Source of the DNA: Candidatus Omnitrophota bacterium
GTDB lineage: Bacteria; Omnitrophota; Gorgyraeia; Tantalellales; Tantalellaceae
Length of the DNA: 64,000 bases
Assembly: GCA_014728045.1 (NCBI GenBank)
Contig: WJMH01000015.1
Coordinates: 22,479-86,478, forward strand
Direction: 5' to 3'
Part shown: one piece after another, positions 24,281 to 59,553 of the stretch
Layout of the letters: every line of letters begins with the position of its first letter
Position numbering within the stretch: position 1 is the stretch's first letter
The notes under the pieces: generated by a model
Told to the model about the DNA's origin: nothing
Databases searched by the model: none
What the model saw: only the letters and a program-made list of their open reading frames with translations
Made by a program: the position numbers and the translations under genes

Positions 24281-24408
24281 ATCGATTCTCCTTGCTTAAA
24301 GTGAAAATTTATCCGAAAAACCCTGTTAAAAGTAATATACTACATTACTTTCCATATACAAAAAGAATTTCTGTTGCTGACCGGGACCAGTTATGATAAA
24401 TTAAATCG

Positions 24409-25462: not shown

Positions 25463-25475
25463 GCAGGACTGAACC

Positions 25476-26315: not shown

Positions 26316-26319
26316 GAGA

Positions 26320-26877
26320 ATGTACCTACTTATCGACAATTACGATTCCTTTACCTACAACCTTTACCAGGCTTTCGCTGAACAGGGGGTGGACCTTCTG
26401 GTCAGAAGGAACGACCGAATAAGCCTTGGCGAGATCGAGAAGCTTGCCCCTGAGAAGATAATAATCTCGCCCGGGCCCAAAACTCCCGAAAGCGCGGGAA
26501 TATCCGTTGAGGTCATAAGAAGCTTCTCGTCCCTGAAACCGATACTGGGCGTATGCCTAGGGCTTCAGTGCATAGTTCAAGCCTGCGGCGGCAGGATAGA
26601 CCGGGTTAAAAAGATCGTACACGGGAAGACCTCGCTCATAGAACATGACCGAAAGGGTATATTCAAAGGGGTGCCCTCCCCTTTCCGGGGAGCTAGGTAC
26701 CACTCCCTTCACGCCGAGCGGATACCCGATTGCCTCAGGGTCACCGCCCGCACTCAGGATGATATCGTAATGGGAGTTGAACACCTGGAGCTGCCCCTGG
26801 TGGGGTTACAATTCCACCCCGAGTCCTTTCTCACGGAGGAAGGATCAGTAATAGTTAAGAACTTCATCGAGTTATAA
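26320..26877 (+). CDS. pabA: glutamine amidotransferase component II of aminodeoxychorismate / anthranilate synthase
   Basis: 185 aa class-I GATase (MYLLIDNYDSFTYNL...). pabA is preferred over trpG only by neighbourhood and partner size. Confidence 0.8.
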   Translation: MYLLIDNYDSFTYNLYQAFAEQGVDLLVRRNDRISLGEIEKLAPEKIIISPGPKTPESAGISVEVIRSFSSLKPILGVCLGLQCIVQACGGRIDRVKKIVHGKTSLIEHDRKGIFKGVPSPFRGARYHSLHAERIPDCLRVTARTQDDIVMGVEHLELPLVGLQFHPESFLTEEGSVIVKNFIEL

Positions 26878-26879
26878 TA

Positions 26880-28293: not shown

Positions 28294-31200
28294 TCATGCT
28301 CTGGCCAGCATGGTCTTGATGCTGTCCATCAGATCCCTGAGCCTTTCCTTGTCCAGCTCCTCGGCATCCGGGACGAGCTTTATGACCACCATCCTGTCAC
28401 TTCCGAAAAGCATGCGGCACTCCTCCGCGGAAAGGTCCCTGGAGGAGACGACATTGGGTATCATCCGGTAATTGCGCTTGAGGGTCTCCGGATCCCACTG
28501 CAGGTACTTGCCGATCGCGAAGAGCATTATGTCCAGGAGAGGCAGGTATGCCGCCTCCGGGAATTCACTATCGTCTATCCCCGCTATCACTGACCTCCCC
28601 TGAAAGGAGCTGTAGTAGGCGGTGTTCTTATTGCTGGTAATGACAATGAGGTTGTCCGGGTCCACCGCTCCTTTGGAAGGATCGGTTATGTTCGAAACCC
28701 GGCGGGCCAGGTTGCGGCCCTCTCCCTTTATGATCTCCAGATTCTTGAAGAACCTTTCCAGGTCCTCGTTGTTATCCACTATCGTCGGCAGGAATTTAGC
28801 CAGATCCCTCAGGCAGTCGTTTATCTCGCCGCTTCCCAGGTCGAGATCAAGGGCCAGCACGACCCTTTCCTTTTTGCTGATAGCGGCTATGAGCGCGTTC
28901 ACGAAGGAGGGGATAAGCTTCTCGAGGTCCGGCACCGAACCCGTGCCGCTACTTATACCCTCTTCGATACCGAAAAGGTCCCTGCTGAGTGCCTCGTGTA
29001 AAGTGTCTATATACTCACCCGGCGCCAGCGCATCTTTTATGTGTTCGTAATCGGGAACATATCTTGGATATTTGTCAGAAGGATCTGGTATATGTTTCTT
29101 AAGTCCTTCTGCAAGGGACGGCGAGATGTCCGATAAAAAGACGATCTTGCCCGCGTGCTCAGGGAATTCCTTTTCGAGAGTCTCGGCGATGAAGCCGGAA
29201 GGAGCCACGATGAATTCGGAACCCTCGGCGGTCCCGGCCGTTATCTGCCTGGTGAGGAAATCTTCGACGAATCCGGGGGCCATCCCCTTCCGGATGCAGG
29301 CTGTGACCAGCTGCCTGTGGGGTTTACCCGAAGAAGGATCGGCCACGCGCAATCCGCAGGATAAGGCGTTTACATTGCTGAAGACGGGATTACGGGATAT
29401 GATATCCTTGGCTATGACCTCCATGAGGAAGCTTCTCTGAGCGTTAAGCACGCAGGTAAAAAGGATATCCGCCCCTTCCCCGTTAGCGAGCTTCTCTTTA
29501 AGCCGTGCCGCGTTCCTGGCGGACCTGATAGAAAGGTCCTCGAATTTTTTCACGGGTATGTCCTCGCTCTCGGATACTTCGAACTTTATGGGTATGTGCC
29601 TGGTCTTCCCGGGATCATCTTGCGGTGATCTGTCTTTACCGGCATCGGCCAGAGAGGCGGGCGCGTAATCGGGATTATCTACCGTGGGGGTATCCCCGTA
29701 TACATCCTGGTTGATGTTCTCGTGACGCAAACGTGCCATAGCGTAGGAAATAATGTTAAAAAGCACCGTCGTGACTACAAGCGCCCCCGCAGGCCACTGG
29801 ACGTGCGCGGAATGCGCAAGTCCGCCACCGAGCATGGAAACGATCATCAGGTTGAAGCCGGCAACGTAAACAGGCGCTTTGTAAGCGTACTTGAGCCGGC
29901 CCCATAAGGTCTTGCCCTTCGGCGCCCTGAAAAGGTTCGGGGTATGAAGCGCTACGAACAGAGCATACATTCCCGACATGCCGGCTATAAGGGTGAATAT
30001 GCCTATGACGCTGGCCGATACGAGCGAAGAAAGTACGGCAAATGGAAGAAGCGTGAAGATCCTCTCCTCCACCCTCGGCCCGACCTCAAGGGAATATTCC
30101 CACATGGCAAGGTCAGGATCGACTATCCTCTTAAGCAGCCTGACCGTCGCCGGGGCCGCGCTGTTAAAAGTGCCGGGTTTCTCATCCGAACTGATGGGTC
30201 CGGCGGCCACGGCATCGTTATTGACGTTCTCGTGGCGCAGAAGCGCCATCGCGTAGGATATAATGTTAAAAAGCACCGTCGTGAATATCAGTGCTCCCGT
30301 CGGCCACTGGGCGTGCGCGGAATGCGCAAGTCCTCCACCGAGCATGGAGACGATCATCAGGTTGAAACCGGTGACATATACAGGCGCCTTGAAGGCGTAC
30401 CTGATCCTCTCCCAAAGGCTGCTGCCTTTGTGGGCCCTGAAGATATTGGGCGTATGCATGGCCACGAAGAGCGAGTAAACAGCAGCCATGCCGATTATCA
30501 GGGTGCCTATTCCTATCACGCTGGCGGATACCAGCGAGGAAAGAACGGCAAAGGGAATTAGAGTGAAGATCTTCTCCTCGGTCCTCGGTCCGGCCCCTAT
30601 CGCGTACTGCCAGAAAGAGGAATCCGGGTCGACGATCCTCTTGATAAGATAAACGGCCGATGGTGCGTTACCGGCACCCTTCTCGCCCTCGGGGTTGAAG
30701 ATATCACCCTTGAGCGTCCTTCTCTGGGTGGCTTTAAAGATCAGTTCCTGGGTAAGCTTGTACCTGAGGCTGTTTATCTCCTTGAACCTCCTGCGATCGG
30801 TATTGGTAAGCTCCCCTACGCCGACCATCTCCCGGGGCAGGATCTCCTCTATGGGCTTTCGGGCCTTCATGTCCTGTTCTCTCAGCTTAAGAGAGGTCTT
30901 GTACTTTTCCAGAGCCGAATCAAAGTTCTTGACGTAATGTTCCGCTATTCCGTAGCTCAGGTAGTATTCCTTGACCCTGGGGTCACCCTCGGGCAGCATG
31001 TTCACGGCCTGCTGGAAAGCCTCCAGGGCTGCATCGTGAAAATGCCAGAAGAATTCGGCCCTGGCGAGCGTATAATGATCGGCGGCCACGTCGCTTCCGT
31101 TCATCTGTTTGCTCTTGACATCATCCCTGACTATCAGCAGCGTAAGGTACTGCCTGACTTTAAGGAAGCTGCCGGGAGCGATCTGGCAGAACTCCGCGAT

Positions 31201-33828
31201 AAGCTGGTTTATGGCGAGCATCTCTTTCCTGCTCTCCTCGCCGGTGGAGCGGGAAGCTATCCTCTGGGAAACCTCCTGAGCTATCTCCTGCAGGGCCCGG
31301 GCCAGTTCCTCGTAATCTTCCGAGACCCAATTCTTCAGCCTCTGTATCTCGAAATTGAGGCTGAAACCCCATTCAAGTTCGCGCAGGATGCTGAAAACTA
31401 TGGGACGAAGTTCTTCCTTGATCTTTGAGATGTCACCGGTGTAATTCCTTGAATCAAGCCTGAAGACCGCGTCCAGCACGTTACGGGTATCAAGGGGAGG
31501 TTCTGCGGCGAGGATCCTGTCTTTTTTCTTTTTGTCCTTTTCTCCGGAACTGCCGGTTTCCTTCCCGGCGTCCTTCTGGCGGACCCCGAACATGAGCTTG
31601 ATCATCCTCATTATGTACTGCAATAGATCGAACGATATATGCACGGCCCGGTAGGCGTATTTCATGGCCTTTATCGCTTCTTCCCGCTTTTTCGGATCGT
31701 CCATATCTTTTTCCTCGGGTTTTTTCTCTTTCTCTGGCTCATCAGGCTTTTTGACCTCTTCTGCCGCCCTCGCGCGGGAGCTCATCTTTTTCCTGTTAGC
31801 GATGAGCCTTACCATTACGACCACTGCCAGAGAAAGGCCGAACCACGGTATCGGCAGGAACATGGAAAGCCCTACAGATATTATGACAGTAAGTCCCGCG
31901 ACCAGCAAGAAATTCTTCCATCCCGTCCAGTTCTTTATAAGAAGCGCCGCGAAAAGCGTGACCGGAACGACGATAGCTATACCCACGGTGATGATATTTA
32001 CCGGCATCACCATGTAAAGTATACCTGAAAGAAGAAGAGCGCTCGTGAAAGTGATCAGGACGCTCTTCCAGTTTATCGCTCTGACCCTGTCCCAGAAGGA
32101 AAGTCTTATCCTCAAGGAGGCCTCTTTCTTTTCGGGGCTATCTTCTTCGGGGGCCTTTTCTTTCTCAGGCGCCTTAGCGCTTTCCGAGGACGGTTTCTCT
32201 TCAGCGGGGCTTTCTTCGGTGCCGAGTATGGCACGCAGCTTGCTGATAACGGCCCTTATGCCTTCATCCTCCTTCAAAAGGTCAGAGGCGGAGTTCTTTT
32301 TCATGAAGCTTTCATGCTTTGCGAGAAGCTGCTGTATAACCTCCCTCAGCTTCTCCATCTCATCCGGCGTGAGCTTATCGTCCATGCCTTTCTGTCCGAG
32401 TATCTTCGTGCCCTTTTCCCAGGCGACTTCCATCTCCCAGATCCAGCTGAGCCTTGCGAAAATATACCGGTACTCTTCCGCGAGCGCTCGGAGCGTCTTC
32501 ATAGCCATCTTGCGGCTACCCGGGAAAAGACGCGACTGCTTGAGCATGTACTGGCGCTTGATCCATTCGAAATACTGCTTATATAAGGTAAAGAAATGCG
32601 AGGCATCCTGAGGTCCCGTCTTCTTGAGGAAATCCTGCTGCTTGAACTTCTCGAGCTGTTCGCCGATCTCGGTGCTGCTTCTGGCCTGGTCCGGGAACGG
32701 GTCACACCTGTCCCAGAGGACGTTTTTGAGCACGATGGAGAGTTCCCCGTCCCGGTGTCCCGCGATGCGGTCGCCTTCGATCGCCTCGTAATTCTCCGGG
32801 AAAAGCTTCACCTGTATGGCACGCGCCCTTTCATGCCCGAAATAAGGACATATCATTTCGTGAAAAATATATTCCTGCAGCAGGGGTTCGTCCATCTCTA
32901 TGAGGTCCAGTACCTGCGTGCAGAGTCCTATTGTATCGGGATAATCATCTTTCAGTTTCGAGAAAAGCGTATCGATCGGTCCGGTGTGGGCAGTAAACCC
33001 CGTCAGTTCGACGCCGGACCCTGAAGTGGTATTGAACCCGAGAAGCCAGTTATGGGGCCTGGTCGGCTCCTGCCTGTCGGTCAGGACCACCGCGCTGAAC
33101 TCAAGGAACTTTGAAGATGCGGAAAGTTCCACGACCTGCTGCAGTTTCTTTCTGGTCCACGCGTCTATCTGAGCTTTCTGTATCCTTTTGTCGAGCTTCT
33201 TCTCAATCCCTTTGACCCGTTTGATCAGGCGGTGCCTCAGATCCGCCGGCGGATTGACGTTCTCGACCAGAGCTTCATGTATCCGGTGGGCTTCATTCTT
33301 GTTCTCGACCCTGGTGACGAACCCGCGTTCGTCAGGAGGCTCGAGTACCAGCTGCCGCATCAGGTATTCGCCTACTTTCTCCTGGCTCTGGACTTGGCAA
33401 GAAGAACCCGGGTCACTGGACCCGGGTATTTTAGGGTTGAAATATCTTATCCTGTAAGGACCGATCCCGATCGATACCTCACCGGAGGCCTCTGAACCGG
33501 TAACGAGCGGCCACCGCTGAAGGAATCCCGCCGGGATGTTCTTGGTGTTTTTTACCTGATCAAGCGCCAGCTGCGCGCAATCCTTTATACTGAACAGGTT
33601 CCGGTTGGCCGGATCGGCCTCGAATGCAATAAGCGCGTCGATGACATACCTGGTCATCACCATGAAATAACTTTCACCCTGCTTGGAAGGATCAAAGAAT
33701 GTCTGCGGCTGAAGATCGCTTTTCCGAGTTATATCCGGATTGGCCCACACCACCCCCTGCCATACCAGGAGGATGCAAAGAACGAACGCTATTGATCTTA
33801 CAGATTTATTTTTTGATAATTCCCTCAT
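28294..33828 (-). CDS. giant polytopic membrane protein A (about 1844-1861 aa), function unknown
   Basis: Uninterrupted 5.6-kb ORF. I place the start at the first ATG, 33828 (MRELSKNKSVRSIAFVLCILLVWQG.., a signal peptide); the track begins at TTG 33879. Domain order is: N-terminal periplasmic-type domain, multi-TM region including an internally duplicated 170-aa TM module, a CX5R(S)..DP low-molecular-weight PTP-like module, and a ~190-aa C-terminal domain shared with gene A' (44681-48589). Ends with a double stop TGATGA. Confidence 0.85.
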   Translation of the reverse strand: MRELSKNKSVRSIAFVLCILLVWQGVVWANPDITRKSDLQPQTFFDPSKQGESYFMVMTRYVIDALIAFEADPANRNLFSIKDCAQLALDQVKNTKNIPAGFLQRWPLVTGSEASGEVSIGIGPYRIRYFNPKIPGSSDPGSSCQVQSQEKVGEYLMRQLVLEPPDERGFVTRVENKNEAHRIHEALVENVNPPADLRHRLIKRVKGIEKKLDKRIQKAQIDAWTRKKLQQVVELSASSKFLEFSAVVLTDRQEPTRPHNWLLGFNTTSGSGVELTGFTAHTGPIDTLFSKLKDDYPDTIGLCTQVLDLIEMDEPLLQEYIFHEMICPYFGHERARAIQVKLFPENYEAIEGDRIAGHRDGELSIVLKNVLWDRCDPFPDQARSSTEIGEQLEKFKQQDFLKKTGPQDASHFFTLYKQYFEWIKRQYMLKQSRLFPGSRKMAMKTLRALAEEYRYIFARLSWIWEMEVAWEKGTKILGQKGMDDKLTPDEMEKLREVIQQLLAKHESFMKKNSASDLLKEDEGIRAVISKLRAILGTEESPAEEKPSSESAKAPEKEKAPEEDSPEKKEASLRIRLSFWDRVRAINWKSVLITFTSALLLSGILYMVMPVNIITVGIAIVVPVTLFAALLIKNWTGWKNFLLVAGLTVIISVGLSMFLPIPWFGLSLAVVVMVRLIANRKKMSSRARAAEEVKKPDEPEKEKKPEEKDMDDPKKREEAIKAMKYAYRAVHISFDLLQYIMRMIKLMFGVRQKDAGKETGSSGEKDKKKKDRILAAEPPLDTRNVLDAVFRLDSRNYTGDISKIKEELRPIVFSILRELEWGFSLNFEIQRLKNWVSEDYEELARALQEIAQEVSQRIASRSTGEESRKEMLAINQLIAEFCQIAPGSFLKVRQYLTLLIVRDDVKSKQMNGSDVAADHYTLARAEFFWHFHDAALEAFQQAVNMLPEGDPRVKEYYLSYGIAEHYVKNFDSALEKYKTSLKLREQDMKARKPIEEILPREMVGVGELTNTDRRRFKEINSLRYKLTQELIFKATQRRTLKGDIFNPEGEKGAGNAPSAVYLIKRIVDPDSSFWQYAIGAGPRTEEKIFTLIPFAVLSSLVSASVIGIGTLIIGMAAVYSLFVAMHTPNIFRAHKGSSLWERIRYAFKAPVYVTGFNLMIVSMLGGGLAHSAHAQWPTGALIFTTVLFNIISYAMALLRHENVNNDAVAAGPISSDEKPGTFNSAAPATVRLLKRIVDPDLAMWEYSLEVGPRVEERIFTLLPFAVLSSLVSASVIGIFTLIAGMSGMYALFVALHTPNLFRAPKGKTLWGRLKYAYKAPVYVAGFNLMIVSMLGGGLAHSAHVQWPAGALVVTTVLFNIISYAMARLRHENINQDVYGDTPTVDNPDYAPASLADAGKDRSPQDDPGKTRHIPIKFEVSESEDIPVKKFEDLSIRSARNAARLKEKLANGEGADILFTCVLNAQRSFLMEVIAKDIISRNPVFSNVNALSCGLRVADPSSGKPHRQLVTACIRKGMAPGFVEDFLTRQITAGTAEGSEFIVAPSGFIAETLEKEFPEHAGKIVFLSDISPSLAEGLKKHIPDPSDKYPRYVPDYEHIKDALAPGEYIDTLHEALSRDLFGIEEGISSGTGSVPDLEKLIPSFVNALIAAISKKERVVLALDLDLGSGEINDCLRDLAKFLPTIVDNNEDLERFFKNLEIIKGEGRNLARRVSNITDPSKGAVDPDNLIVITSNKNTAYYSSFQGRSVIAGIDDSEFPEAAYLPLLDIMLFAIGKYLQWDPETLKRNYRMIPNVVSSRDLSAEECRMLFGSDRMVVIKLVPDAEELDKERLRDLMDSIKTMLARA
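29690..30665 (-). repeat. intragenic tandem duplication (2 x ~510 bp) inside giant gene A
   Basis: Two DNA copies offset by 510 bp (for example GTTCTCGTGACGCAAACGTGCCATAGCGTAGG at 29716 versus GTTCTCGTGGCGCAGAAGCGCCATCGCGTAGG at 30226). They encode two ~150-aa TM modules (RIVDPD..FAVLSSLVSASVIGI..GFNLMIVSMLGGGLAHSAH..FNIISYAM) about 75-80% identical. Confidence 0.8.
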
Positions 33829-33879
33829 ATCGACAATACCTACACCTACCCCCCCGTAGCCTTTTGTAAGCTTTAACAA

Positions 33880-34070
33880 AGTAGTCGTATTATGCTTTTT
33901 GATTTCTTAACTTTATGTTGACATGAAAGATAATAACATTTATAGCTGAATTATTCAATACAAATAACTGGCTTTTTTAATTTTAACGAGGATATGAAGG
34001 CGTGTTTTGCTCGATGAGCGGAAAATACCCCTGGTAAGAAAGGTGAGATAAAATAGGAATTATTATTATA
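33880..34070 (-). promoter_or_regulatory. AT-rich upstream island of giant gene A (putative promoter region)
   Basis: A 190-bp stretch far more AT-rich than the window average (TTGACATGAAAGATAATAACATTTATAGCTGAATTATTCAATAC...). It lies between the B stop and the A start, which implies an independent promoter. Confidence 0.4.
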
Positions 34071-40000: not shown

Positions 40001-43000
40001 TCATGATCGCGTGTATCGCGCCGTTGGAGCCCCTTAACCTGTTACCTCCGGAACCGTAAGCGAGACTTACCGTGACGGGGTTGCCGTCGGCGTCGGTCAC
40101 GACACGCCCGTCTTCATCGGTCACGGCGACTTCCTGGACGCCCCCTTTCTGCAAAACGTACATATTGAGAGAGTAACTGAGTAGATCCACGAACTTCCTA
40201 ACGTCACTTTCCCGGAGGGGCTTGTCCATGCGGCCCATGAGGTAGAGGTCTATCATCCTTTCGAGGGATTCCCTGATCATGTACCCCTCGTCACGGGCGG
40301 TCCGGTCGTATCTTAACAGCCCCCTTGTATCATATATATTGAGTATCCCGTCTATAGAAGTGGCGAGCGCGTTCTTAAGACCCTCCAGGTTCTTCCTTCT
40401 TTCGCCGGCACGGTCGAAGAGCTCAGAGTCCCTTCTGACCCGCCGCGCTATAGCATCGCCGTAGCCTATCGGCATCATCTGCAGCTTCTTCTGGAGGTCC
40501 TCTATCTCGCTTTCTTCGGTCATTTCAACGTTGATCAGAGTATTGAGCGTCTTGAAATCAAGTTCATCTTTTTTGATATCGACACGCGAAAGCGCAGGAT
40601 CCGTTATCCGGGACCTGTTGACCCTGAAAGCGACCTGCTTCTTTTTTTCATCCATCAGGTCCTTGAGTATGGGAACTATAGACTTGCGGTAGGCGGTCTC
40701 CAAAGCCTCCATGAGCTCGCTGAGATCAGCGGCTCCCTTTTCCATCAGTTCCTCTATCCGGTCTATCGCCTCGTCCCTCCTCTTTTTATCCTTCTCGTCC
40801 CTGAACCTGGTCTTTTTAACCTCGTCCAGGGCTTCCTGGAGGATGGACTCAAGTTCCTCTCCCGAAGGCATCCTCTCCACCGTTACTATGCCTTCGGATA
40901 TCAGACTCTCCAGAGCCGAGAACTGTTCCCGGCCTATGGGGCCCACCACCGAGAACTTGGCGGAATGTGTCTCCCGGCGTCTTTGTTCCTGACGGTCTTC
41001 CACGACTGCGTCTATGGCCTCGAAAAAAGCCTTCTCAAGATCAGGCCTTCCCTTGAAGGCCTCATCCAGGGCGTCTTCTGTCATGACAAGAACCCTCATC
41101 GGGGTATCGGCGACGACATCAGCGTTCCTGCGCGTCCTGTGTACCAGAGCTATCTCGCCTACCATCTGCCCGGCGCCGTTATCCGTCTGGAAGACGGTGT
41201 TCTTGGTCCTGCTCCCTATGAGCGGATAATCCACCCTGTACCCCCCAGAAAGCACGAAATACGCGGAATTATCATCCGGAGTTCCCGCCTTGATAAAGGT
41301 CTCCCCGGGCTGTATATATGTAACGCCCAGGTTTTCGCTCATTCTTCTGACGAGTTCATCACGGTCTTCCCGGGAAAGCGAATTGAAAAAGACATTGAGA
41401 TCAGAACCTTCTACCTGAAAAGCATTCTCTATGACTTCAAGGGATTCACCGTAATCGACGACCCCCATCCTGTTCCTGCCGCTTGCCAGAAGCTGTTCCT
41501 GCTCGCGGGAGAGGCCCCGGTCACGCACCAGCCGCTGAAGGGCATCCGCTATGTCCTGCGCCGCGTCGATCTTGCCGTCCTGGAAACTGCTCCTCAGCCT
41601 CTCAAGCGAAGTGGATAATTTGCTTATCTTGACCGGGCTGAGCCCGGGCCGGTTCTGCCTGCCCTCGGCCATGGCGGGAAGGATATCTTCCTTTACACGG
41701 GCGATCTCAGAGGCTATCTCAGCGTCGTTCAAAAGCCCCTTGACCATGTCGCCTATCTCCATGCGCGTGTTAAGGAAGAAATCATCCAGCTCCTTCTGTA
41801 TTTCGGCCTTTCTCTCCTTCTGGAACTGTGAACTGAGTGAATTCACCGTTCTCTGGAGTCCGTTCAGGAAGTTTACCAGGCCCACAAGTTCGTCAGCGGC
41901 TTTCTGTTTGTCATCCTCTTGTCTAAGTCTGCGCGCCAAGGTATATACCAGGTTACTGGCGGTGGATGAAGCAAATGAATCGATCTTGTCGGAGTATCCT
42001 GTCATCGCGTAATCATCCAAGGTGCGGCAGAGACTTTTTGCGGAGGTGATCAGGCCCTCGCTCTCCAGCTGGCGCCTTATAGCGGGCAGCATCTTTGAAG
42101 TAAGCTTAAGACCTCCTTCCAGAGGCGCGGTATAGTCCCTGTCCACTTCGAGCCTTTCTTCGGCTTCCATCTGCCAGACGGCGGCGGTCACCAGTTCACC
42201 CGCCTCATCCGGTTTCTTAAGCGGAGTCTCATCCGCGAGAAGTTTATCCCGCCTGTCATTAGCGCGATAGGCCTGTTCAACCTGCTCTGCGAGTATATGG
42301 TCGCCGTAGATGCCGCCGACTATTTCATGGAGGATAACGCTTCGCCCGTCCCTGCCGATCCTGCCGTCCGCGTTCTGGTACTTTGCGTTTATGCGTATAC
42401 CGTAACCGCCCGGAGTACCTTCGAAATTCACCCCTTCAACTGTACGTACAAGGGGAAGTCCCGTGAGAACACTGTTGCCGGTAAGTCCTTTTACTATCTC
42501 TTCGACATCAGGGGAGATGCCCATCGCTTCGAGAAAGGGAAGCAGGTCGTTATTTATTATATCGTCAAGTTCCCCTTCGGGGATGTCCTTGAAGCTTTCG
42601 GGAGCCTGCAGGCTAATAGCTTCCATCTGCTGGTCTGTCTCGCGTTCATGTACCCGGTGGAGGAGTTCCCGGAGGGGCATGGTAATGGGCCTTCCCTTCT
42701 TCATCCTGAGGACAAGATCCTCTCCCTTTCTTTCGATACCTACGATCTCGTTGCCCTCGGCGATAGCCTTCTGGTTCTGGGTGACCACGATCACGGCCGC
42801 CTTGAAAGCGTCTATGCTCCTTCGATCCCATACGTCCTCTCCCAGCGGAGAGAGAAAACTCGCCACCTGTATGAGTGAAGCCTCGCTCAGGATCCGGTAC
42901 ATCTTCTCGTAGGTGCCGGAGATCTTCCCCGAAAGAAGGTCGAAATACGGGCATTCGTACCCCTTTTCGTTCTTGAAGTCCGGAATTATCGAAACATAGG

Positions 43001-44489: not shown

Positions 44490-44680
44490 GATATCCTCTC
44501 TTAGTCTGCATCTTTTTAAAAGTTTTTATTTAGTTGCCAAAAAAAGAGTATTTCCCTATAATTTATATATAGAAAAAATACAATTTTTTAATATTATAAA
44601 TACTTCCTCTATATATAGTTTACACCTCTAAAAATCCATTTTCAAACCAATTGAGCTTACTTTTTTAAACTTTAACTGCA
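44490..44680 (-). promoter_or_regulatory. AT-rich upstream island of giant gene B (putative promoter region)
   Basis: 191 bp between the A' stop and the B start, strongly AT-rich (TATAATTTATATATAGAAAAAATACAATTTTTTAATATTATAAATAC...), with several TATAAT-like boxes. Confidence 0.4.
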
Positions 44681-47600
44681 TCAGGCCCTTGCCAGCATAA
44701 GCTTGATATTCTCCATTATATCCCTGAGTCTTTCTATCCCAAGGCTGGTAGCATCCGGGATAAGACGCAGCACCATGGCTGACCTTGTCTCCCCGAAAAG
44801 CAGATCGCGTTCGATCATGCTAAGCTCATCATAAGAAATAACATTGGGGATCGTCCTGTAGCATTCCATCAATGTTTGCCTGTCCCATCCCAGATGTCTG
44901 CCAATGGCAAAAAGCATGGTTTCAAGTACCGGCAGGTAAGCACCTTCCGGAAGGTCCGAAGAATCTATACCGGCAAGAGTAGCCCTGCCCTCGAACCTGT
45001 CGTAATACTCCAGGTTATTCTTGCTTGTTAGAACTATCAGGTTCTCCGGATCCACCGAGCCTTTTTCCGGATCGGTGAGGCTCTCCACCCTCCTGGCAAG
45101 TATCCCGCCTTCGCCTTTTATTATCTCAAGGTCCCTGAAGAACCTCTCGAGATCCTTATTGTTCTTCTCAAGATCGGGAAGAACTTCCAGTATATCCCGC
45201 ATGATGGAATTCACCCGGCCTTCGCCTATATCAAGATCCAGCGCGATCAGCACCTTTTTCTCTTTTCCGGAAAAAGCGAAAAGCGAATTCACTATCTCGT
45301 TTATAACCCTTGATGCGTTCCGGATGATGGAGGCGGCAAGGGATCTGCTTGAAGCCTTCTGTTTCTCCTCGGCCCTGCGGATCTTGCCATACTCAACGGG
45401 ATAGGCGTATCTGGCAAGTTCCAAAGCCCTCCGGGATGTCTCCGGGCCGGAAAAACACATTGAAAGAACCGACTGCTTTACGGACTTAAAATCCCCTCTA
45501 TATGCCTGGTCCAGTATCCGCTGCACCTCTTCGGGGAAAATATGCGACCTGATCCTGTCGATATGCGCGTCAACCAGATCCCGGAAACGTTCGTGAATAT
45601 TACCGTTTACCAGCCGGACCACGTCATTTGCCTCCGGATCGTCCCTGAGACCGGTATCGATGGTCTCGAGGGCGGTACTGACAAGATCGGTATTCAGCAC
45701 GTAACGGCCGAGGAATTCATCAAGCTGCACGTTTTCAAGCCTGTCCATATTGACCTTGCCCACAACCAGGTCTTCCCTGTAAAAAGCACCGATCTGCTCT
45801 TTCATGTCCAGGTATATCTTTTCCAGCTCTTTGTCGGTTATCCCGTATCCATTCGTGCTGGCGCTGGACGCCGTCACCAGATAGAACGCCATGGCAAGTT
45901 TTCTCTTCATCAACGCGTTGGAACCGATCAGGAAGAACTTTGTCTGGGTGCCCCCGGTCGCGGGGTCGTCCCCGCCAAGGCGTTTTCCCGTCCATGGGTC
46001 TATGGCGTAACCCTTTCTTCCGGCGGCTATCCAGGGCTTGCCGGGGACTTCTCCCGACGAGGTCCTGCTTACCGGGCGGGCGCCTGCGAAATACATAAGA
46101 GAAAAAAGAAACAAACCTTCGCGCATATGGTCACCGGATACGGTTATCCCGAAATCCCTTGCATCTATTATGCGCATGTTCTCGAGCTGGCCGGCGAACA
46201 GGAGCATGACCGGATACGGGGCGGGCGGGAGCCTTATGATCCTTTCACCGTTATTCTTCAGCACGGACCTATCCAGCTCATGTGGCGTCCTGGTCCGGGA
46301 TATGTAATTGACAAGCTTGGCCCTGAGGCTGTGCTCGGCGTCCACAGCCGACAGAAGCTCCCTGCCGGACCTGTGATAATCAAGCCCCATTGCCGGATAA
46401 TCCTTCGAGATCTTTTCAAGAACCATTAGCCCGGGTATGACCTCTTCTTTCAATCTCGCGATAAATCTCTCTGAGATCTCTTCTTTTGAGGCGACTTCCT
46501 CCAGTAGCAACAGCTTCACGTATGCCTGCGCGCCTATTGAAAGAGCCGAAAGGTCCAGCAGGTCATATGTCTCATCCACAATCCGCATCAGATTTTGACC
46601 GTTCTCACAAAGACGCTGGTAAAGTGGCACATCCGGAGTGTTCGAAGAAAGCTCGGCTATGAGATCCCTCTCAGCTTTCCTGCAGAACTCAAGGGCCTCT
46701 TTTTCGTCCATATCCAGGCCGAACTGGCCGAAGTAACGCAATGTACCTTCGAGGTTCTCCCCGGCACAGGCTCGCGCAACGGATTCGGCGTGCCTTCTGC
46801 CTCTGAGACCGAATTTCCTGAAATTGACCGCGGTGGACCTGCCGTTGTGACGCGCGCAGGATAATGCTAAATTCAAAATGACCTCCTGGTGGTGTTCCTC
46901 ATCAAATCCGAAATTCCGGAAATTCACGGCCACGCTCTCCGGGCTCTCGCGTGAGGCTATCTGCGCTATACCCGAGACCTCTCTGAGCTCCTTACGGGAT
47001 GCGGTGGGGTCAAGACCGAACTGGTCGAAATACAGCGCTACGCCGTGTCCGTTCTGCATCGCCGAGAGCGTGGCGATCTTCACGGCGTGAGATCTCTCAA
47101 CCAGGCCGAATCTTTTGTAATGCCGGGAAGTGCTCTCCCCGTCGCAGGAAGCGCAATGCTGTGCCAGGTCCAGGATGAGGTGCTCATGGTGTTCCGCATC
47201 AAATCCGAAATTCCGGAAATTCATGGCTGCATGACCGGCGGCGACATTTATGCATAAGAGCGCGATCTCATGGACTGTCTCCGGGTATCTGTACGGATCA
47301 AGGTTGAACTGGGAGAACGACTCAACAGTCTTCCTGGGAGACTGCCCCGCGCTCTTTAAGGCTAATCTGGCCCTGAGAGAAGCATATTCGTGCTGATCGA
47401 TATCGATACCGAATGTGCTTTTGGTAACTTCCTTGATACGGGGGTACTCTCTCGCGATAAGTCCGCCCTCTGGCACCAACCCCATAACGAAACCTACCAG
47501 GTCATCATCCCTGCCCCTCTTGAAGAAAGATGCGTACATTCCGTCCATGCCGGATCTGCGCAGAAAAGCCACCATAAGATTTACGAATAAGTGCCATCCC

Positions 47601-48589
47601 ATACTGAGCAGGAGCGCCCATGCAGGCTGCGAGGCCAGAACCGAAGCGAGCGCTATCCCGCCTGCGGCGGTCGCGAAAGGCGCTGCGAACACGCTAAAAG
47701 CTCTTTTAAGATCCAGTCTGGTTCTCTCTTGCGCAGACAAGTTATAAATGTGACCAGCGGTAAAGACGCTCCCGGCGAGGATCAGCCCACTATAAAAAAG
47801 GCCGATCATGAGCGGTGGTGCGACGCAGCCGAACTTCCTCAGAAAGATAAGAACACCAAGTGGTAACCCCACCTTCAAAAGCTCTTCAGCGACCGGCGCA
47901 TGGAAAAAAGCGGAGTACCTCACCTTGAGCCTTGAAGCGACGAAGTCAAGAGAACTCGTATGAGGAGAGGTCCGGCCTTCTTCCTCCTGGGGCGGACTTC
48001 CAGGGACGTCCGGACCCGTACTTTCGCCGGGCTTCGGCGCGACCGACTCCCGTATAAGGCGTTCATCGCGCCCGTCATCCCCGTTCAGGATGATCTGCCG
48101 CGCAAGATACTCTCCTATCCTTTTCTGTTCTATCACCCTGCGTCCGGGGTTACTGCCTAGGGCATCTCTCAGCTTGGGATTGTAATAACGGATGATACAC
48201 AGCCCGAGGTCGATAACAAACTCTCCTTCTTCGGCTTCGTCTTTTATAACCGGCAAAGCCTCAAGAATGCGCACCGAAGTTTCGAGTTGATTTATCGCCT
48301 CTTGCGCGCGGTCTTTCATCCTGAAAATATTCCGGTTAAGAGGATCTCTCTCGCAAGCGGCAAGAGTGCCGGTAAGGTAGGCCATCACTGCAGAAACTTG
48401 GCCGGCGGGATCACTGATCAGCGTTCTTGGCTGCAACTGGTCACGGTTTGTTATCAGACCAGGATCGGCCCAGACCATACCCTGCCAGAGCAGCAGGACG
48501 CTCAGAAGTATCGATACGCATCTTATCGGATATATGTATTTCCGCGTTTTTATCATAGTATCATTATGATCATTTAATACAACATTCAT
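44681..48589 (-). CDS. giant membrane protein A' (1302 aa), paralog of A, function unknown
   Basis: Uninterrupted 3.9-kb ORF. The N-terminal ~180 aa and the C-terminal ~190 aa align with gene A (for example ...LVLTSKNNLEYYDRFEGRATLAGIDSSDLPEGAYLPVLETMLFAIG...MLARA versus ...LIVITSNKNTAYYSSFQGRSVIAGIDDSEFPEAAYLPLLDIMLFAIG...MLARA). Signal peptide and TM region present. An alternative start at ATG 48556 (MIKTRK..) gives a more canonical signal peptide. Confidence 0.85.
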   Translation of the reverse strand: MNVVLNDHNDTMIKTRKYIYPIRCVSILLSVLLLWQGMVWADPGLITNRDQLQPRTLISDPAGQVSAVMAYLTGTLAACERDPLNRNIFRMKDRAQEAINQLETSVRILEALPVIKDEAEEGEFVIDLGLCIIRYYNPKLRDALGSNPGRRVIEQKRIGEYLARQIILNGDDGRDERLIRESVAPKPGESTGPDVPGSPPQEEEGRTSPHTSSLDFVASRLKVRYSAFFHAPVAEELLKVGLPLGVLIFLRKFGCVAPPLMIGLFYSGLILAGSVFTAGHIYNLSAQERTRLDLKRAFSVFAAPFATAAGGIALASVLASQPAWALLLSMGWHLFVNLMVAFLRRSGMDGMYASFFKRGRDDDLVGFVMGLVPEGGLIAREYPRIKEVTKSTFGIDIDQHEYASLRARLALKSAGQSPRKTVESFSQFNLDPYRYPETVHEIALLCINVAAGHAAMNFRNFGFDAEHHEHLILDLAQHCASCDGESTSRHYKRFGLVERSHAVKIATLSAMQNGHGVALYFDQFGLDPTASRKELREVSGIAQIASRESPESVAVNFRNFGFDEEHHQEVILNLALSCARHNGRSTAVNFRKFGLRGRRHAESVARACAGENLEGTLRYFGQFGLDMDEKEALEFCRKAERDLIAELSSNTPDVPLYQRLCENGQNLMRIVDETYDLLDLSALSIGAQAYVKLLLLEEVASKEEISERFIARLKEEVIPGLMVLEKISKDYPAMGLDYHRSGRELLSAVDAEHSLRAKLVNYISRTRTPHELDRSVLKNNGERIIRLPPAPYPVMLLFAGQLENMRIIDARDFGITVSGDHMREGLFLFSLMYFAGARPVSRTSSGEVPGKPWIAAGRKGYAIDPWTGKRLGGDDPATGGTQTKFFLIGSNALMKRKLAMAFYLVTASSASTNGYGITDKELEKIYLDMKEQIGAFYREDLVVGKVNMDRLENVQLDEFLGRYVLNTDLVSTALETIDTGLRDDPEANDVVRLVNGNIHERFRDLVDAHIDRIRSHIFPEEVQRILDQAYRGDFKSVKQSVLSMCFSGPETSRRALELARYAYPVEYGKIRRAEEKQKASSRSLAASIIRNASRVINEIVNSLFAFSGKEKKVLIALDLDIGEGRVNSIMRDILEVLPDLEKNNKDLERFFRDLEIIKGEGGILARRVESLTDPEKGSVDPENLIVLTSKNNLEYYDRFEGRATLAGIDSSDLPEGAYLPVLETMLFAIGRHLGWDRQTLMECYRTIPNVISYDELSMIERDLLFGETRSAMVLRLIPDATSLGIERLRDIMENIKLMLARA
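46700..47290 (-). repeat. intragenic ~297-bp tandem repeats inside giant gene A'
   Basis: ATCAAATCCGAAATTCCGGAAATTCA(C/T)GGC recurs at 46901 and 47198. The encoded ~99-aa units each contain YFxQFGLD and NFRNFGFDxEHHxxxILxLAxxCA. Confidence 0.7.
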
Positions 48590-48722
48590 TACGCACAGGA
48601 AAATGACAAAGAATGCTTGTTATTACTTTTTTTTATCTTAACAGAGATAGTACTTTAGTACTATAACATTATAAAAGGTATAAATCAATGCTAAAGGTGC
48701 TTACTTTTTATTGTTTAACTCA
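48590..48722 (-). promoter_or_regulatory. AT-rich upstream island of giant gene A' (putative promoter region)
   Basis: 133-bp AT-rich spacer (..TTATCTTAACAGAGATAGTACTTTAGTACTATAACATTATAAAAGGTATAAATC..) between the radical-SAM gene stop and the A' start. Confidence 0.35.
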
Positions 48723-59411: not shown

Positions 59412-59553
59412 AAGCTCCTCCTTTTTTAAGCCATTATTCACTCCACACTTTAATGATACCATGATAGTATCATTTGTCAAGGGTGATAATGTACCTTTTT
59501 TATACCCGGATACCTAACTTCCGCGAAAAGGAATAACCGCGGGAAAAAACTTT

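What the first reader, a model, noticed from the sequence alone, without database searches (positions are those of the whole stretch)
28294..48722. Three-gene giant-protein locus (1861 + 3472 + 1302 aa) with individual AT-rich promoter islands: candidate undescribed envelope-spanning system
Twenty kilobases are occupied by three consecutive same-strand ORFs with no stop codons. Each is preceded by a 130-190 bp AT-rich island in an otherwise ~58% GC, tightly packed genome, and each has its own start/RBS context, which suggests separately regulated promoters. The outer two (A, A') are paralogous polytopic membrane proteins. The central one (B) is a signal-peptide-bearing, highly acidic, helical protein carrying a cNMP-binding-like segment. 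Apart from the LMW-PTP-like and cNMP-binding-like modules, none of the three shows a recognisable motif. A membrane giant - secreted giant - membrane giant arrangement with shared domains looks like a dedicated surface, signalling or contact system rather than housekeeping.
Basis: partly seen in the sequence, partly recalled or inferred. Interest (0 to 1): 0.9.

Follow-up and report, generated by a model that had tools for sequence, protein, structure and literature searches.

The report
Omnitrophota giant modular envelope protein trio
Three real, separately promoted giant genes of an uncultured Omnitrophota bacterium encode exported or membrane proteins built as conserved end caps around changeable middle domains, so they are new members of that phylum's known giant-protein repertoire rather than a demonstrated three-part envelope machine.

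Summary
Three intact minus-strand ORFs (A' 1302 aa, B 3472 aa, A 1861/1844 aa) are each preceded by an AT-rich spacer. The source is a Candidatus Omnitrophota MAG, and the arrangement recurs in at least four other assemblies, so it is not a misassembly.

B belongs to a very large Omnitrophota family: 7,859 clusters at 50% identity share its first ~550-800 residues, always at the N-terminus. A predicted structure plus invariant residues (D88-x-H90, E118, H483) place this cap in the TIKI/TraB/erythromycin-esterase hydrolase superfamily. It is followed by a small zincin-like domain. The middle of the protein is variable, and a Rossmann-like cap ends it.

A and A' share a signal peptide plus N-domain, CPBP-like membrane modules and a C-cap. 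The same caps occur elsewhere around enolase, kinase or HTH cargo.

Distant relatives carry a single A-type gene at this chromosomal slot, and sampled B-family genes elsewhere stand alone. The trio is therefore a lineage-specific juxtaposition. It is probably co-regulated through a promoter signature shared by many giant genes across the phylum. No secretion machinery lies nearby. Function remains inferred.

The parts
44681..48589 (-). Gene A' (1302 aa; NCBI GF409_05440 starts 11 codons later). Order of modules: signal peptide, shared N-domain, CPBP-like 4-TM module, unassigned soluble region, shared A-type C-cap.
48068..48526 (-). A' signal peptide (VWA|DP) and A-type N-domain (aa 22-174), 40% identical to that of A.
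47552..47923 (-). A' membrane module (aa 223-346). The CPBP/PrsW-like motifs EExxK, FxxxH and HxxxN are conserved in its orthologues.
   Evidence: (PrsW E 0.013, below threshold)
44684..45310 (-). A' C-terminal cap (aa 1094-1302), 56% identical to the cap of A.
48660..48709 (-). Promoter-like site of A': A-tract AAAAAGTAAG, TTGATT, 17 nt, TG-TATAGT. Conserved in L001-L003.
34071..44489 (-). Gene B (3472 aa), identical to an NCBI 'cyclic nucleotide-binding domain-containing protein' of a Candidatus Omnitrophica MAG.
44382..44489 (-). B signal peptide: basic n-region, hydrophobic core, DAGA|VA site. The family consensus at this site is DAxA.
42975..44312 (-). B N-cap core (aa ~60-505): TIKI/TraB/Ere-like alpha/beta hydrolase fold with a ~290-aa helical insertion. 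Invariant D88, H90, E118 and H483.
42255..42467 (-). B N-cap zincin-like subdomain (aa ~675-745) with the motif HEIxxGxxGDH.
41052..41318 (-). B cNMP-binding domain (aa 1058-1146), with phosphate-binding cassette GEIALVHRTRRNA. Present only in the closest orthologues.
34935..35372 (-). B selecase-like mini-zincin domain (aa ~3040-3185) with the motif FIFHEM..YGHE. A has a similar domain at aa 276-363.
34074..34787 (-). B C-terminal cap (aa ~3235-3472), Rossmann-like alpha/beta fold. It always lies at the extreme C-terminus of family members.
44617..44675 (-). Promoter-like site of B: TTAAAGTTTAAAAAAGTAAG, then TTGAAA, 17 nt, TAAACT. Conserved in five orthologous loci, and the same signature lies upstream of distant B-family genes.
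28294..33879 (-). Gene A (ORF 1861 aa from TTG; probable start ATG at 33828 giving 1844 aa, NCBI GF409_05430).
33280..33828 (-). A signal peptide (VWA|NP) and A-type N-domain.
32791..33054 (-). A mini-zincin-like 'LLGFNT...YIFHEM..FGHE' domain (aa 276-363), similar to B aa 3113-3186 (E 1e-6).
31801..32061 (-). A first block of four hydrophobic helices (aa 607-693).
29725..30612 (-). A tandem pair of 4-TM modules (aa ~1090-1385) with P-x-EE and FxxxH motifs, weakly homologous to the A' membrane module.
29038..29466 (-). A LMW-PTP/arginine-phosphatase-like domain (aa 1472-1614), P-loop CVLNAQRS. Absent from the closest orthologues (L001, L002) and present in L003 and L004.
28297..28920 (-). A C-terminal cap (aa 1654-1861).
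33930..33979 (-). Promoter-like site of A: TAAAAAAGCCAG, TTGAAT, 17 nt, TG-TATTAT. Conserved in orthologous loci.

Best explanation
The locus holds three independently transcribed and probably co-regulated members of the Omnitrophota repertoire of large modular exported and membrane proteins. They are built as conserved N-terminal cap, variable cargo, conserved C-terminal cap.

B (inferred): it is exported by the Sec pathway.

B domain order (shown at the level of sequence and predicted structure):
1. signal peptide;
2. TIKI/TraB/erythromycin-esterase-type hydrolase domain with a complete catalytic set (D88-x-H90, E118, H483);
3. small zincin-like domain;
4. long, acidic, fast-evolving middle region that in this lineage carries a cNMP-binding domain;
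5. second selecase-like domain;
6. Rossmann-like C-cap.

A and A' are paralogous polytopic membrane proteins. They share a signal peptide plus N-domain, CPBP-like intramembrane-protease-type modules and their own C-cap. A additionally carries a mini-zincin-like domain, TPR repeats and an apparently active LMW-PTP domain.

Origin (inferred from synteny): an ancestral single A-type gene at this chromosomal slot was duplicated, and a B-family gene came to lie between the copies.

Mechanism (inferred, not shown): the three act at the cytoplasmic membrane/periplasm/cell-surface interface as hydrolase- and protease-bearing envelope proteins. The caps would provide export, processing or docking functions, and the middles would provide lineage-specific activities. 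They do not form an obligate three-part machine.
For: Organism and family:
- B is 100% identical to an NCBI Omnitrophica MAG protein. The top 120 of its 351 hits (the set mapped), all giant proteins of 1.9-6 kaa, share only B aa ~30-550(-800); about 33 of the 120 also share the last ~240 aa.
- 7,859 clusters at 50% identity match the N-cap, and in the 150 best-scoring matches it lies at or near the N-terminus.

N-cap fold:
- The AF2 model has pLDDT 75.6.
- D88, H90, E118 and H483 are invariant in 18 diverse members.
- H90 and E118 are 28 residues apart, the same spacing as the His-Glu pair of RRSP and Bcr135 (PMC6254334).

Variable cargo: relatives carry kinase, PPDK, HATPase, GNAT, metallophosphatase, HEAT and other domains. 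A-type caps flank enolase+HEAT, kinase+GNAT, HTH arrays, and M50+glutamate dehydrogenase. The cNMP and LMW-PTP domains are each present in only some of the syntenic orthologues.

Topology: all three have a signal-peptide-like N-terminus with an AxA-type site, and A and A' have even numbers of hydrophobic helices.

Lineage-specific origin: the trio occurs in L001-L004 and L010-L012 with the same flanks. Single A-type genes occupy the same slot in L008 and L009. B-family genes stand alone in L005-L007.

Co-regulation: one promoter-like site lies on the correct strand in each spacer. These sites are conserved in orthologous spacers and share an A-tract/-35/-10 signature.
Against: - Signal peptides and topology come from hydropathy and motif inspection only, because no dedicated predictor was available.
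- Predicted extracytoplasmic placement of cNMP-binding and LMW-PTP domains (and of enolase, GDH or HTH domains in relatives) is biologically awkward.
- The CPBP-like assignment is motif-based, and the Pfam PrsW match (E 0.013) is below threshold.
- Some evidence points the other way, towards real A-B coupling: three of 12 other A-type loci have a B-family gene within 4.5 kb downstream on the same strand; B shares a mini-zincin domain with A; and all three share the promoter signature.
- No expression, localisation or activity data exist.
Confidence: 0.55

Rival explanations
1. Dedicated three-component envelope system. A' and A would form a membrane platform that processes, anchors or exports B, for example with CPBP-like modules cleaving B's signal anchor and the shared caps docking on B. 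The three would work only together.
For: - The order A'-B-A is conserved although B's overall identity falls to ~30%.
- All three genes share the promoter signature.
- B and A share a mini-zincin domain.
- A-type genes are followed by B-family genes in L017, L020 and L021.
- A, A' and B all contain protease-like modules.
Against: - A-type genes occur alone at the same slot in L008 and L009.
- Sampled B-family genes elsewhere have no A-type neighbour.
- The flanking housekeeping genes are equally syntenic, so conserved order is not specific evidence.
- A-type caps occur on unrelated cargo proteins, one of them without a signal peptide.
- The B C-cap and the A C-cap show no detectable homology (hhalign probability 0.5%).
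- No outer-membrane or secretion genes lie in the window.
- The promoter signature is also found upstream of lone giant genes.
Confidence: 0.15
2. Host- or prey-directed effector platform that works like a MARTX toxin. The conserved caps would mediate export and translocation, a cap hydrolase would autoprocess the protein, and the cytoplasmic-type cargo (cNMP-binding here; kinases, acetyltransferases, phosphatases and HTH domains in relatives) would act inside the cell of the host on which the Omnitrophota bacterium lives.
For: - The cap-cargo-cap architecture combines signal peptides with cargo domains that normally work in a cytoplasm.
- The N-cap fold is shared with the bacterial effectors RRSP and HopBA1.
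- The middle regions evolve fast.
- Omnitrophota are inferred to be host-dependent or predatory, and their giant proteins are proposed to act on host cells (PMC10066038; bioRxiv 10.1101/2023.11.21.568195).
Against: - There are no RTX repeats, no type I secretion signal and no cysteine protease domain.
- No secretion or pilus genes lie nearby.
- The locus is in a core housekeeping neighbourhood without mobile elements.
- Nothing shows autoprocessing or translocation.
- A and A' are polytopic membrane proteins, not soluble effectors.
Confidence: 0.15
3. Membrane-tethered cytoplasmic scaffolds. The N-terminal hydrophobic segment would be an uncleaved anchor or not membrane-inserted at all, and the bulk of each protein, including the cNMP-binding and LMW-PTP signalling domains, would work in the cytoplasm as a regulatory or metabolic scaffold.
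For: - The cargo domains (cNMP-binding, LMW-PTP with intact P-loop, and kinases, enolase, GDH and HTH domains in relatives) need cytoplasmic ligands.
- One A-type-capped giant protein has no signal peptide (L013 86-10627).
- The literature classes 46% of Omnitrophota long proteins as TM-only with cytoplasmic bulk (bioRxiv 10.64898/2026.06.07.730766).
Against: - The positive-inside rule and the conserved AxA-type sites predict export of everything after the first helix.
- Even helix counts in A and A' put their soluble parts on the same side as the N-domain.
- From general knowledge of the superfamily, TIKI, PrgY and ChaN are extracytoplasmic.
Confidence: 0.15

Closest known systems
Omnitrophota giant / very long modular proteins ('Archaeovorins' and the multi-enzyme class; West-Roberts et al. 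2023 bioRxiv 10.1101/2023.11.21.568195; Seymour et al. 2023 PMC10066038; Nielsen & Lui 2026 bioRxiv 10.64898/2026.06.07.730766)
   Same: Same phylum. Same signal-peptide-only (B) or signal-peptide-plus-TM (A, A') topology classes. Same mixture of unannotated sequence with scattered cytoplasmic-type regulatory and enzymatic domains: HATPase, kinase, GNAT, PPDK, HEAT and TPR in B's relatives. Sequences are poorly conserved outside small parts.
   Different: These proteins are 1.3-3.5 kaa, far below the 10-30 kaa thresholds of those studies. No SecA-DEAD, C39 or S8 domains are present. No type II secretion or pilus genes lie nearby. The conserved TIKI-like N-cap, the two C-cap types and the shared promoter signature were not mentioned in the passages of those papers I read. 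West-Roberts et al. state that the N-terminal regions generally lack identifiable domains.
TIKI / TraB / PrgY / ChaN / erythromycin-esterase / RRSP superfamily
   Different: No sequence-profile match to any Pfam or PDB member. Asp replaces the first Glu. A ~290-aa helical insertion splits the fold. The domain is fused to the N-terminus of multi-kiloresidue proteins. Activity and substrate are unknown.
MARTX toxins (conserved terminal regions flanking a variable array of effector domains plus an autoprocessing protease)
   Same: Cap-cargo-cap logic, variable central domains of cytoplasmic type, and a hydrolase domain inside the conserved part. One MARTX effector (RRSP) has the same fold as the N-cap.
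   Different: No RTX or glycine-rich repeats, no type I secretion signal or transporter genes, and no inositol-hexakisphosphate-activated cysteine protease domain. B has a Sec-type signal peptide instead. The resemblance is architectural only.
CPBP (CAAX protease / Abi) and PrsW intramembrane proteases
   Same: The A' membrane module has the three ordered motifs EExx(K), FxxxH and HxxxN in successive hydrophobic helices, conserved in its orthologues. It gives a weak Pfam PrsW match.
   Different: The match is below the Pfam threshold. Lys replaces the motif-1 Arg. The tandem modules of A keep only the first two motifs. The module is embedded in proteins of 1300-1860 aa.
Minigluzincins (selecase, abylysin) and other small zincins
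   Different: The canonical HExxH motif is replaced by HE-x7/8-(D/G)H(E), so metal binding and activity are uncertain.

Membership tests
Omnitrophota giant modular proteins (Archaeovorin / multi-enzyme class) | Encoded by Omnitrophota genomes | tested here: met
   B, A and A' are identical to NCBI proteins of a Candidatus Omnitrophica MAG. Every relative that carries a source name is Omnitrophota, except two TPA-labelled MAG records titled 'uncultured Planctomycetia bacterium'.
Omnitrophota giant modular proteins (Archaeovorin / multi-enzyme class) | Length of at least 10,000 aa (Nielsen & Lui) or 30,000 aa (West-Roberts) | tested here: not met
   The proteins are 1302, 3472 and 1844-1861 aa. 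The listed family members reach ~7.7 kaa.
Omnitrophota giant modular proteins (Archaeovorin / multi-enzyme class) | Signal peptide and/or transmembrane helices | tested here: met
   Hydropathy scan and AxA-type sites. No dedicated predictor was available.
Omnitrophota giant modular proteins (Archaeovorin / multi-enzyme class) | Many distinct enzymatic or regulatory Pfam domains tiled along the polypeptide | tested here: inconclusive
   Each window protein has at most one Pfam domain above threshold: cNMP-binding in B, LMW-PTP in A, none in A'. Relatives with the same caps carry kinases, PPDK, HATPase, GNAT, enolase, GDH and HTH domains.
Omnitrophota giant modular proteins (Archaeovorin / multi-enzyme class) | SecA DEAD-like domain and neighbouring type II secretion / type IV pilus genes | tested here: not met
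   No such Pfam hit in the three proteins or in the scanned ORFs of the 64 kb window.
TIKI/TraB/ChaN/Ere superfamily (B N-cap) | Alpha/beta fold with a parallel beta-sheet core shared by superfamily members | tested here: met
TIKI/TraB/ChaN/Ere superfamily (B N-cap) | 2His/2Glu catalytic set at the strand ends (RRSP E3900, H3902, E3930, H4030) | tested here: met
   D88-x-H90, E118 and H483 are invariant in 18 members and each follows a predicted strand. The H90-E118 spacing of 28 residues equals that of RRSP and Bcr135. The first acid is Asp rather than Glu.
TIKI/TraB/ChaN/Ere superfamily (B N-cap) | Sequence-profile match to a curated family (TraB_PrgY_gumN, ChaN or Erythro_esterase) | tested here: not met
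   No Pfam hit at E up to 10 for the window protein or 17 relatives. The PDB profile search was empty.
TIKI/TraB/ChaN/Ere superfamily (B N-cap) | Hydrolase (protease or esterase) activity | not testable with these tools
   Needs a biochemical assay of the purified N-cap and of D88, H90, E118 and H483 mutants.
CPBP / PrsW intramembrane proteases (A' and A membrane modules) | Motifs EExxxR, FxxxH and HxxxN/D in successive TM helices | tested here: inconclusive
   A' and three orthologues keep EExxK, FxxxH and HxxxN. The modules of A keep EE and FxxxH only. The Pfam PrsW match (E 0.013, 15.5 bits) is below the 23.5-bit cut-off.
Cyclic-nucleotide-binding domain (B aa 1058-1146) | Pfam PF00027 above gathering score, with a phosphate-binding cassette containing the conserved Arg | tested here: met
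   41.3 bits against a 27.5-bit cut-off. PDB matches to PKG and HCN cyclic-nucleotide-binding domains. The cassette GEIALVHRTRRNA is conserved in the three close orthologues.
LMW phosphotyrosine / arginine phosphatase (A aa 1472-1614) | Pfam PF01451 above gathering score, with a CX5R(S/T) P-loop | tested here: met
   28.2 bits against a 23.2-bit cut-off. The best PDB match is YwlE. CVLNAQRS is present here and in six other distinct A-family sequences (the L003 and L004 orthologues, P0126, P0127).
MARTX toxins | RTX/glycine-rich repeats, cysteine protease domain, type I secretion | tested here: not met
   No corresponding Pfam or NCBIfam hits. B has a Sec-type signal peptide instead.

The most novel reading that the evidence does not exclude
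The TIKI-capped proteins (thousands of clusters) and the A-type-capped proteins would form a phylum-wide, promoter-coordinated delivery platform. Omnitrophota would export large polypeptides that carry cytoplasmic-type enzymes and regulators. A cap hydrolase would process them, and the cargo would be placed on or into the host or prey cell. In this lineage the membrane giants A' and A would serve as the dedicated processing or anchoring partners of B. This would be a new kind of effector system in ultra-small host-dependent bacteria.
Probability: 0.15. Interest if true: 0.85.

Novelty: new variant of a known kind. Interest (0 to 1): 0.55.

Why it matters
Omnitrophota are widespread, uncultured, host-dependent nanobacteria. 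Their giant proteins are their most striking feature and the least understood.

This analysis shows that thousands of their 2-8 kaa proteins begin with one conserved domain. That domain is probably a catalytically competent TIKI/TraB/Ere-type hydrolase. It also shows that two kinds of conserved C-terminal caps close very different cargo proteins, and that a common promoter signature precedes these genes.

Together these give concrete handles on the biology:
- a domain that can be expressed and assayed;
- four residues that can be mutated;
- a motif for defining the regulon.

For the specific locus, the result tempers the claim. It is a lineage-specific neighbourhood of such proteins, not a demonstrated new envelope machine.

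Tried and rejected
- Exact look-up of B in the assembly index: not on record.
- tRNA and Rfam scans of the window: nothing.
- NCBIfam on the three proteins: only sub-threshold noise.
- Pfam on isolated modules (N-cap, both C-caps, A N-domain, membrane modules): nothing meaningful.
- Pfam on all 18 N-cap sequences: no TraB, ChaN or Ere hit.
- PDB profile searches with the N-cap and C-terminal alignments: empty, or one chance hit.
- Homology between the B C-cap and the A/A' C-cap, suggested by eye: rejected by hhalign (probability 0.5%).
- Foldseek of the N-cap model against the PDB: no significant hit, with EreC, TraB and HopBA1 appearing only among weak matches. The AFDB library was unavailable.
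- Homology search with A': returned only itself because of candidate limits. Its orthologues were recovered from the syntenic loci instead.
- Internal repeats by self-BLAST in A', A and B: none at E 1e-3.
- Folding the B leader RNA: no excess stability (z -0.96).
- Intrinsic terminators in the spacers: none convincing.
- Misassembly or chimera: rejected by independent assemblies.
Full report
**1. The observation**

The region holds three consecutive minus-strand ORFs with no internal stops. They are A' at 44681-48589 (1302 aa, ATG), B at 34071-44489 (3472 aa, ATG) and A at 28294-33879 (1861 aa from a TTG). Transcription runs A', then B, then A.

For A, the ATG at 33828 follows a G-rich Shine-Dalgarno-like stretch and matches the 1844-aa NCBI model.

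The three upstream spacers are 133, 191 and 191-242 bp long with GC 0.23-0.33. Nine AT-rich islands of this kind occur in the 64 kb, so AT-richness itself is ordinary intergenic composition here.

B has a cNMP-binding domain at aa 1058-1146 (E 1.6e-10). A has an LMW-PTP domain at aa 1472-1614 (E 2.6e-6). Pfam and NCBIfam give nothing else above threshold.

A and A' are 40% identical over the N-terminal ~150-160 residues and 56% identical over the last ~210 residues. B and A share one short domain, B 3113-3186 against A 276-363 (E 1e-6, motif LLGFNT...FIFHEM..YGHE).

A hydropathy scan gives these results:
- B has a single N-terminal hydrophobic segment.
- A' has an N-terminal segment plus about four helices at aa 244-343.
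- A has an N-terminal segment, four helices at aa 607-693, and two tandem four-helix modules at aa ~1100-1385.
- B has a net charge of -137.

**2. Source, and exclusion of artefact**

B, A and A' are 100% identical to proteins of one Candidatus Omnitrophica MAG contig of 283,552 bp. A is locus tag GF409_05430 and A' is GF409_05440; B is annotated 'cyclic nucleotide-binding domain-containing protein'.

The same order A'-B-A, with intact ORFs and the same flanking genes, occurs in four further loci:
- two ENA metagenome scaffolds, L001 and L002, whose B orthologues are 60-67% identical;
- an NCBI MAG, L003;
- a further scaffold, L004, where B aligns at only ~45% over its N-terminal quarter.

The shared flanks are a B12-radical SAM gene, PAP2, a SLOG gene and an alpha/beta hydrolase upstream. 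Downstream and converging are anthranilate-synthase-like genes, LytB and a polyprenyl synthase. A scan of GTDB genomes found the trio again in JBAROK010000027.1. The ORFs are therefore not chimeras.

The rest of the window is housekeeping. It includes MnmE, a Mur ligase, PurH, MgtE, UvrD, glycogen phosphorylase, a SpoIIE phosphatase, aldolase, rubrerythrin and glutamate dehydrogenase. It has no secretion, pilus or mobile-element genes.

**3. What B is**

The homology search returned 351 proteins. Those that carry a source name are from Omnitrophota, and most are 1.9-6 kaa long.

Mapping the top 120 hits onto B showed where they align:
- All 120 align to B aa ~30-550, and about 40% of them (47-54 of 120) continue to aa ~700-800. 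The match begins within the first ~120 residues of every hit.
- About 33 also align to B's last ~240 residues, and that match always ends at their last residue.
- The middle of B aligns only in the closest orthologues.

An exhaustive HMMER search with B aa 1-800 found 7,859 clusters at 50% identity with E ≤ 1e-3, and 2,656 with E ≤ 1e-30.

The relatives' middles carry very different domains: Ser/Thr kinase, PPDK/PEP-utilising, HATPase, metallophosphatase, UbiB, M48 peptidase, GNAT, HEAT and TPR.

Within the syntenic orthologues, identity stays high for aa 1-550 and 3100-3472. It falls to 12-30% in between, and the cNMP cassette is found only in the three closest orthologues.

B is thus a cap-cargo-cap protein.

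**4. The N-cap**

An alignment of 18 diverse N-caps (A1) has these invariant residues: Q87, D88, A89, H90, N92, Q96, N116, L117, E118, G119, T479, G480, G481, F482, H483 and N486. I read these as a GxxH...E...GxxH pattern of the TIKI/TraB type and then tested that idea.

- AlphaFold2 on A1 gave a model with mean pLDDT 75.6.
- The RRSP structure paper defines the catalytic set as 2His/2Glu: E3900, H3902, E3930 and H4030. It equates H3902-E3930 with H85-E113 of Bcr135 (PMC6254334).
- B has D88-x-H90, then E118 exactly 28 residues after H90 (the same spacing as in both of those enzymes), and H483. Each follows a predicted beta-strand.
- A helical insertion of ~290 residues (aa ~173-465) splits the fold.

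There are caveats. Foldseek on the whole 820-aa model was not significant. No Pfam or PDB sequence profile links the cap to TraB, ChaN or Ere families. I rate the fold assignment as likely (about 0.7) and the catalytic competence as plausible but untested.

**5. The C-terminal part of B**

By eye it resembles the A/A' C-cap, in that both end in a strand, an Asp and a terminal helix. Profile-profile comparison does not support homology (probability 0.5%).

**6. What A and A' are**

The A family is small, with 12 hits. All share the signal-peptide-like start, whose consensus is WQGVVWA followed by N/D/S/A and then usually P, and the N-domain. Most end in ...IRLIPDA..F...LR.LM..I..MLARA-COOH.

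The membrane module of A' keeps three ordered motifs in A' and its three full-length orthologues: P-x-EE-x-x-K, F-x-x-x-H and G-W-H-x-x-V-N. This is the CPBP (CAAX protease/Abi) signature with Lys in place of Arg. Pfam gives only a sub-threshold PrsW match.

The tandem modules of A align with the A' module in register over the first two motifs (hhalign E 1.3e-4, probability 54%).

The LMW-PTP domain of A has an intact CX5R(S) loop. Its best PDB match is the arginine/tyrosine phosphatase YwlE. The domain is missing from the two closest A orthologues and present in more distant ones.

A-type caps are also modular:
- L013 encodes signal peptide + N-domain + HEAT repeats + enolase + C-cap.
- A 3513-aa neighbour in L013 has kinase + HEAT + GNAT + the same C-cap, but no signal peptide.
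- L020 has a protein of at least 3537 aa made of HTH arrays + TPR + C-cap.
- P0131 carries an M50 peptidase and a glutamate dehydrogenase after the A-type N-terminal part.

**7. Is the trio a system?**

*Points against an obligate system*
- Three distant B-family genes that I looked up sit alone in unrelated neighbourhoods. L005 is among mobile and defence genes, L006 is next to an RND pump, and L007 is after the ribosomal protein/rpoA cluster of a complete genome.
- The distant A homologues P0129 and P0130 occupy the same syntenic slot next to polyprenyl synthase, LytB and a chorismate-binding enzyme. They do so as single genes, with no B and no A'.
- The simplest history is therefore an ancestral single A, later duplicated, with a B-family gene between the copies in one lineage.
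- Because the housekeeping flanks are equally conserved, conserved order by itself does not prove functional linkage.

*Points for some linkage*
- Among 12 A-type loci outside the trio lineage, three (L017, L020, L021) have a B-family gene 0.5-4.5 kb downstream on the same strand. I could not measure the genomic density of B-family genes, so I cannot give a P value.
- B and A share the mini-zincin domain.
- The three promoters are alike, as described next.

**8. Promoters**

Each spacer has one sigma-70-like site on the coding strand:
- 48688-48660: TTGATT, 17 nt, TATAGT, with an extended TG.
- 44645-44617: TTGAAA, 17 nt, TAAACT.
- 33958-33930: TTGAAT, 17 nt, TATTAT, with TG.

Alignments of the orthologous spacers show that exactly these hexamers, plus an upstream A-tract (AAAAAAGTAAG or similar), are conserved, while the neighbouring coding sequence has diverged to 30-50% protein identity.

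The composite AAAAAG-YMAG-N8-14-TTGA occurs three times in the window, only at these sites. It recurs at the corresponding places in L001-L003 and L012. It also lies directly upstream of the lone A-type genes of L008 and L018.

A broader signature, TTAR-N4-WAAAAAAG-N12-17-TTG, lies ~95-200 nt upstream of the B-family genes in L001, L002, L005, L006, L007, L012, L017 and L021. It also lies upstream of the A-type genes in L004 and L014. It has almost no other matches in ~440 kb of loci, and none in block-shuffled window sequence. One further loose match in the window, at 59453-59502, precedes unrelated genes.

The patterns were derived from these sequences after the fact, so the counts at the defining sites are circular. 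The informative parts are the conservation across loci and the rarity elsewhere.

The promoter type seems to be a common feature of giant genes across the phylum. It could be an UP-element-like strong promoter or the site of a shared regulator.

**9. Mechanism**

*Shown by sequence or predicted structure*
- The domain orders given above.
- The conserved catalytic-type residues.
- The modular gain and loss of cargo.
- The signal-peptide-like N-termini.

*Inferred*
- B is exported and A/A' are inserted with their soluble parts on the outer side. The basis is the basic n-regions, the AxA-type sites and the even helix counts.
- The caps provide export, processing or docking functions, and the middles provide lineage-specific functions.

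This fits what is published for much longer Omnitrophota proteins. In that work 94% have a signal peptide or TM helices, and the domain content is dominated by regulatory and metabolic enzymes. It inherits the same unresolved paradox of cytoplasmic-type domains in predicted extracytoplasmic regions.

Three rivals remain open:
- an obligate A'-B-A complex;
- a MARTX-like effector platform directed at the host cell;
- membrane-tethered cytoplasmic scaffolds.

**10. Novelty and score**

Giant modular proteins of Omnitrophota are known, so the phenomenon is not new, and the locus is not shown to be a new machine.

What appears new relative to the curated libraries and the papers I could search:
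- thousands of mid-sized giants share one N-terminal cap;
- that cap is probably a TIKI/TraB/Ere-type hydrolase followed by a zincin-like domain;
- at least two C-cap families and one N-domain family recombine with varied cargo;
- a conserved promoter signature precedes these genes.

I classify the finding as a new variant of a known kind, with moderate interest (0.55). The ceiling is higher if the effector-platform reading proves true.

Noticed in passing
window 48660-48709, 44617-44675, 33930-33979 (minus strand); also L001 9816-9874, L005 9825-9883, L006 9873-9931, L007 9804-9862, L014 3461-3519, L017 6074-6131, L021 14375-14407, L008 9905-9929, L018 5677-5700: A conserved promoter signature (TTAR-N4-WAAAAAAG, 12-17 nt, TTGnnn, ~17 nt, TAnnnT) precedes both B-family and A-type giant genes in widely diverged Omnitrophota. 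It is almost absent elsewhere in the sequences held. It could be an UP-element-like strong promoter or the site of a regulator shared by giant genes. The pattern was derived post hoc.
   Followed up: partly
window ~44500-44540 (minus strand); L005 ~9930-9965; L007 ~9925-9960: A T-run followed by an A/T-rich block ending in TTTAAAAAG lies ~25-70 nt before the start codon of B. Similar leaders precede distant B-family genes (CTCTTTTTTTGGCAACTAAATAAAAACTTTTAAAAAG here, ATTTTTTCACCTCTTATTTTAGAGGTTTACAAAG in L005). Folding the window leader shows no excess stability (z -0.96), so it may be a protein-binding or translation element.
   Followed up: partly
L013 86-10627 and 10677-15029; L020 17-10630; protein P0131: The A-type N-domain and C-cap enclose unrelated cytoplasmic-type cargo in other Omnitrophota: HEAT repeats plus a full enolase, kinase+HEAT+GNAT (this one without a signal peptide), long arrays of HTH domains, and M50 peptidase plus glutamate dehydrogenase.
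   Followed up: partly
window 24374-28283 (plus strand); L001-L003, L008, L009: The A-type gene always converges on or abuts the same block of polyprenyl synthase, LytB/IspH and chorismate-binding (anthranilate-synthase-like) genes, even in lineages without B and A'. Whether this link between a CPBP-like (CAAX-protease-type) membrane protein and isoprenoid genes has meaning is untested.
   Followed up: no
This suggests tandem B-family genes on one contig, so giant genes may cluster. That matters for judging whether A-B adjacency exceeds chance.
   Followed up: no
window 59453-59502 (minus strand): A fourth match to the loose A-tract/-35/-10 promoter pattern lies in an AT-rich island, upstream on the minus strand of a 139-aa ORF (58495-58914) that I did not scan and, beyond it, the rubrerythrin gene. 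It is unrelated to the giant genes.
   Followed up: no
window 18074-19525 (minus strand); L008 20744-22126; L009 20586-21974: A SpoIIE/PP2C-type phosphatase gene lies on the far side of the isoprenoid-gene block from the A-type gene in L008 and L009, and about 9 kb from A in the window. One B-family relative (P0107) carries a SpoIIE domain internally.
   Followed up: no
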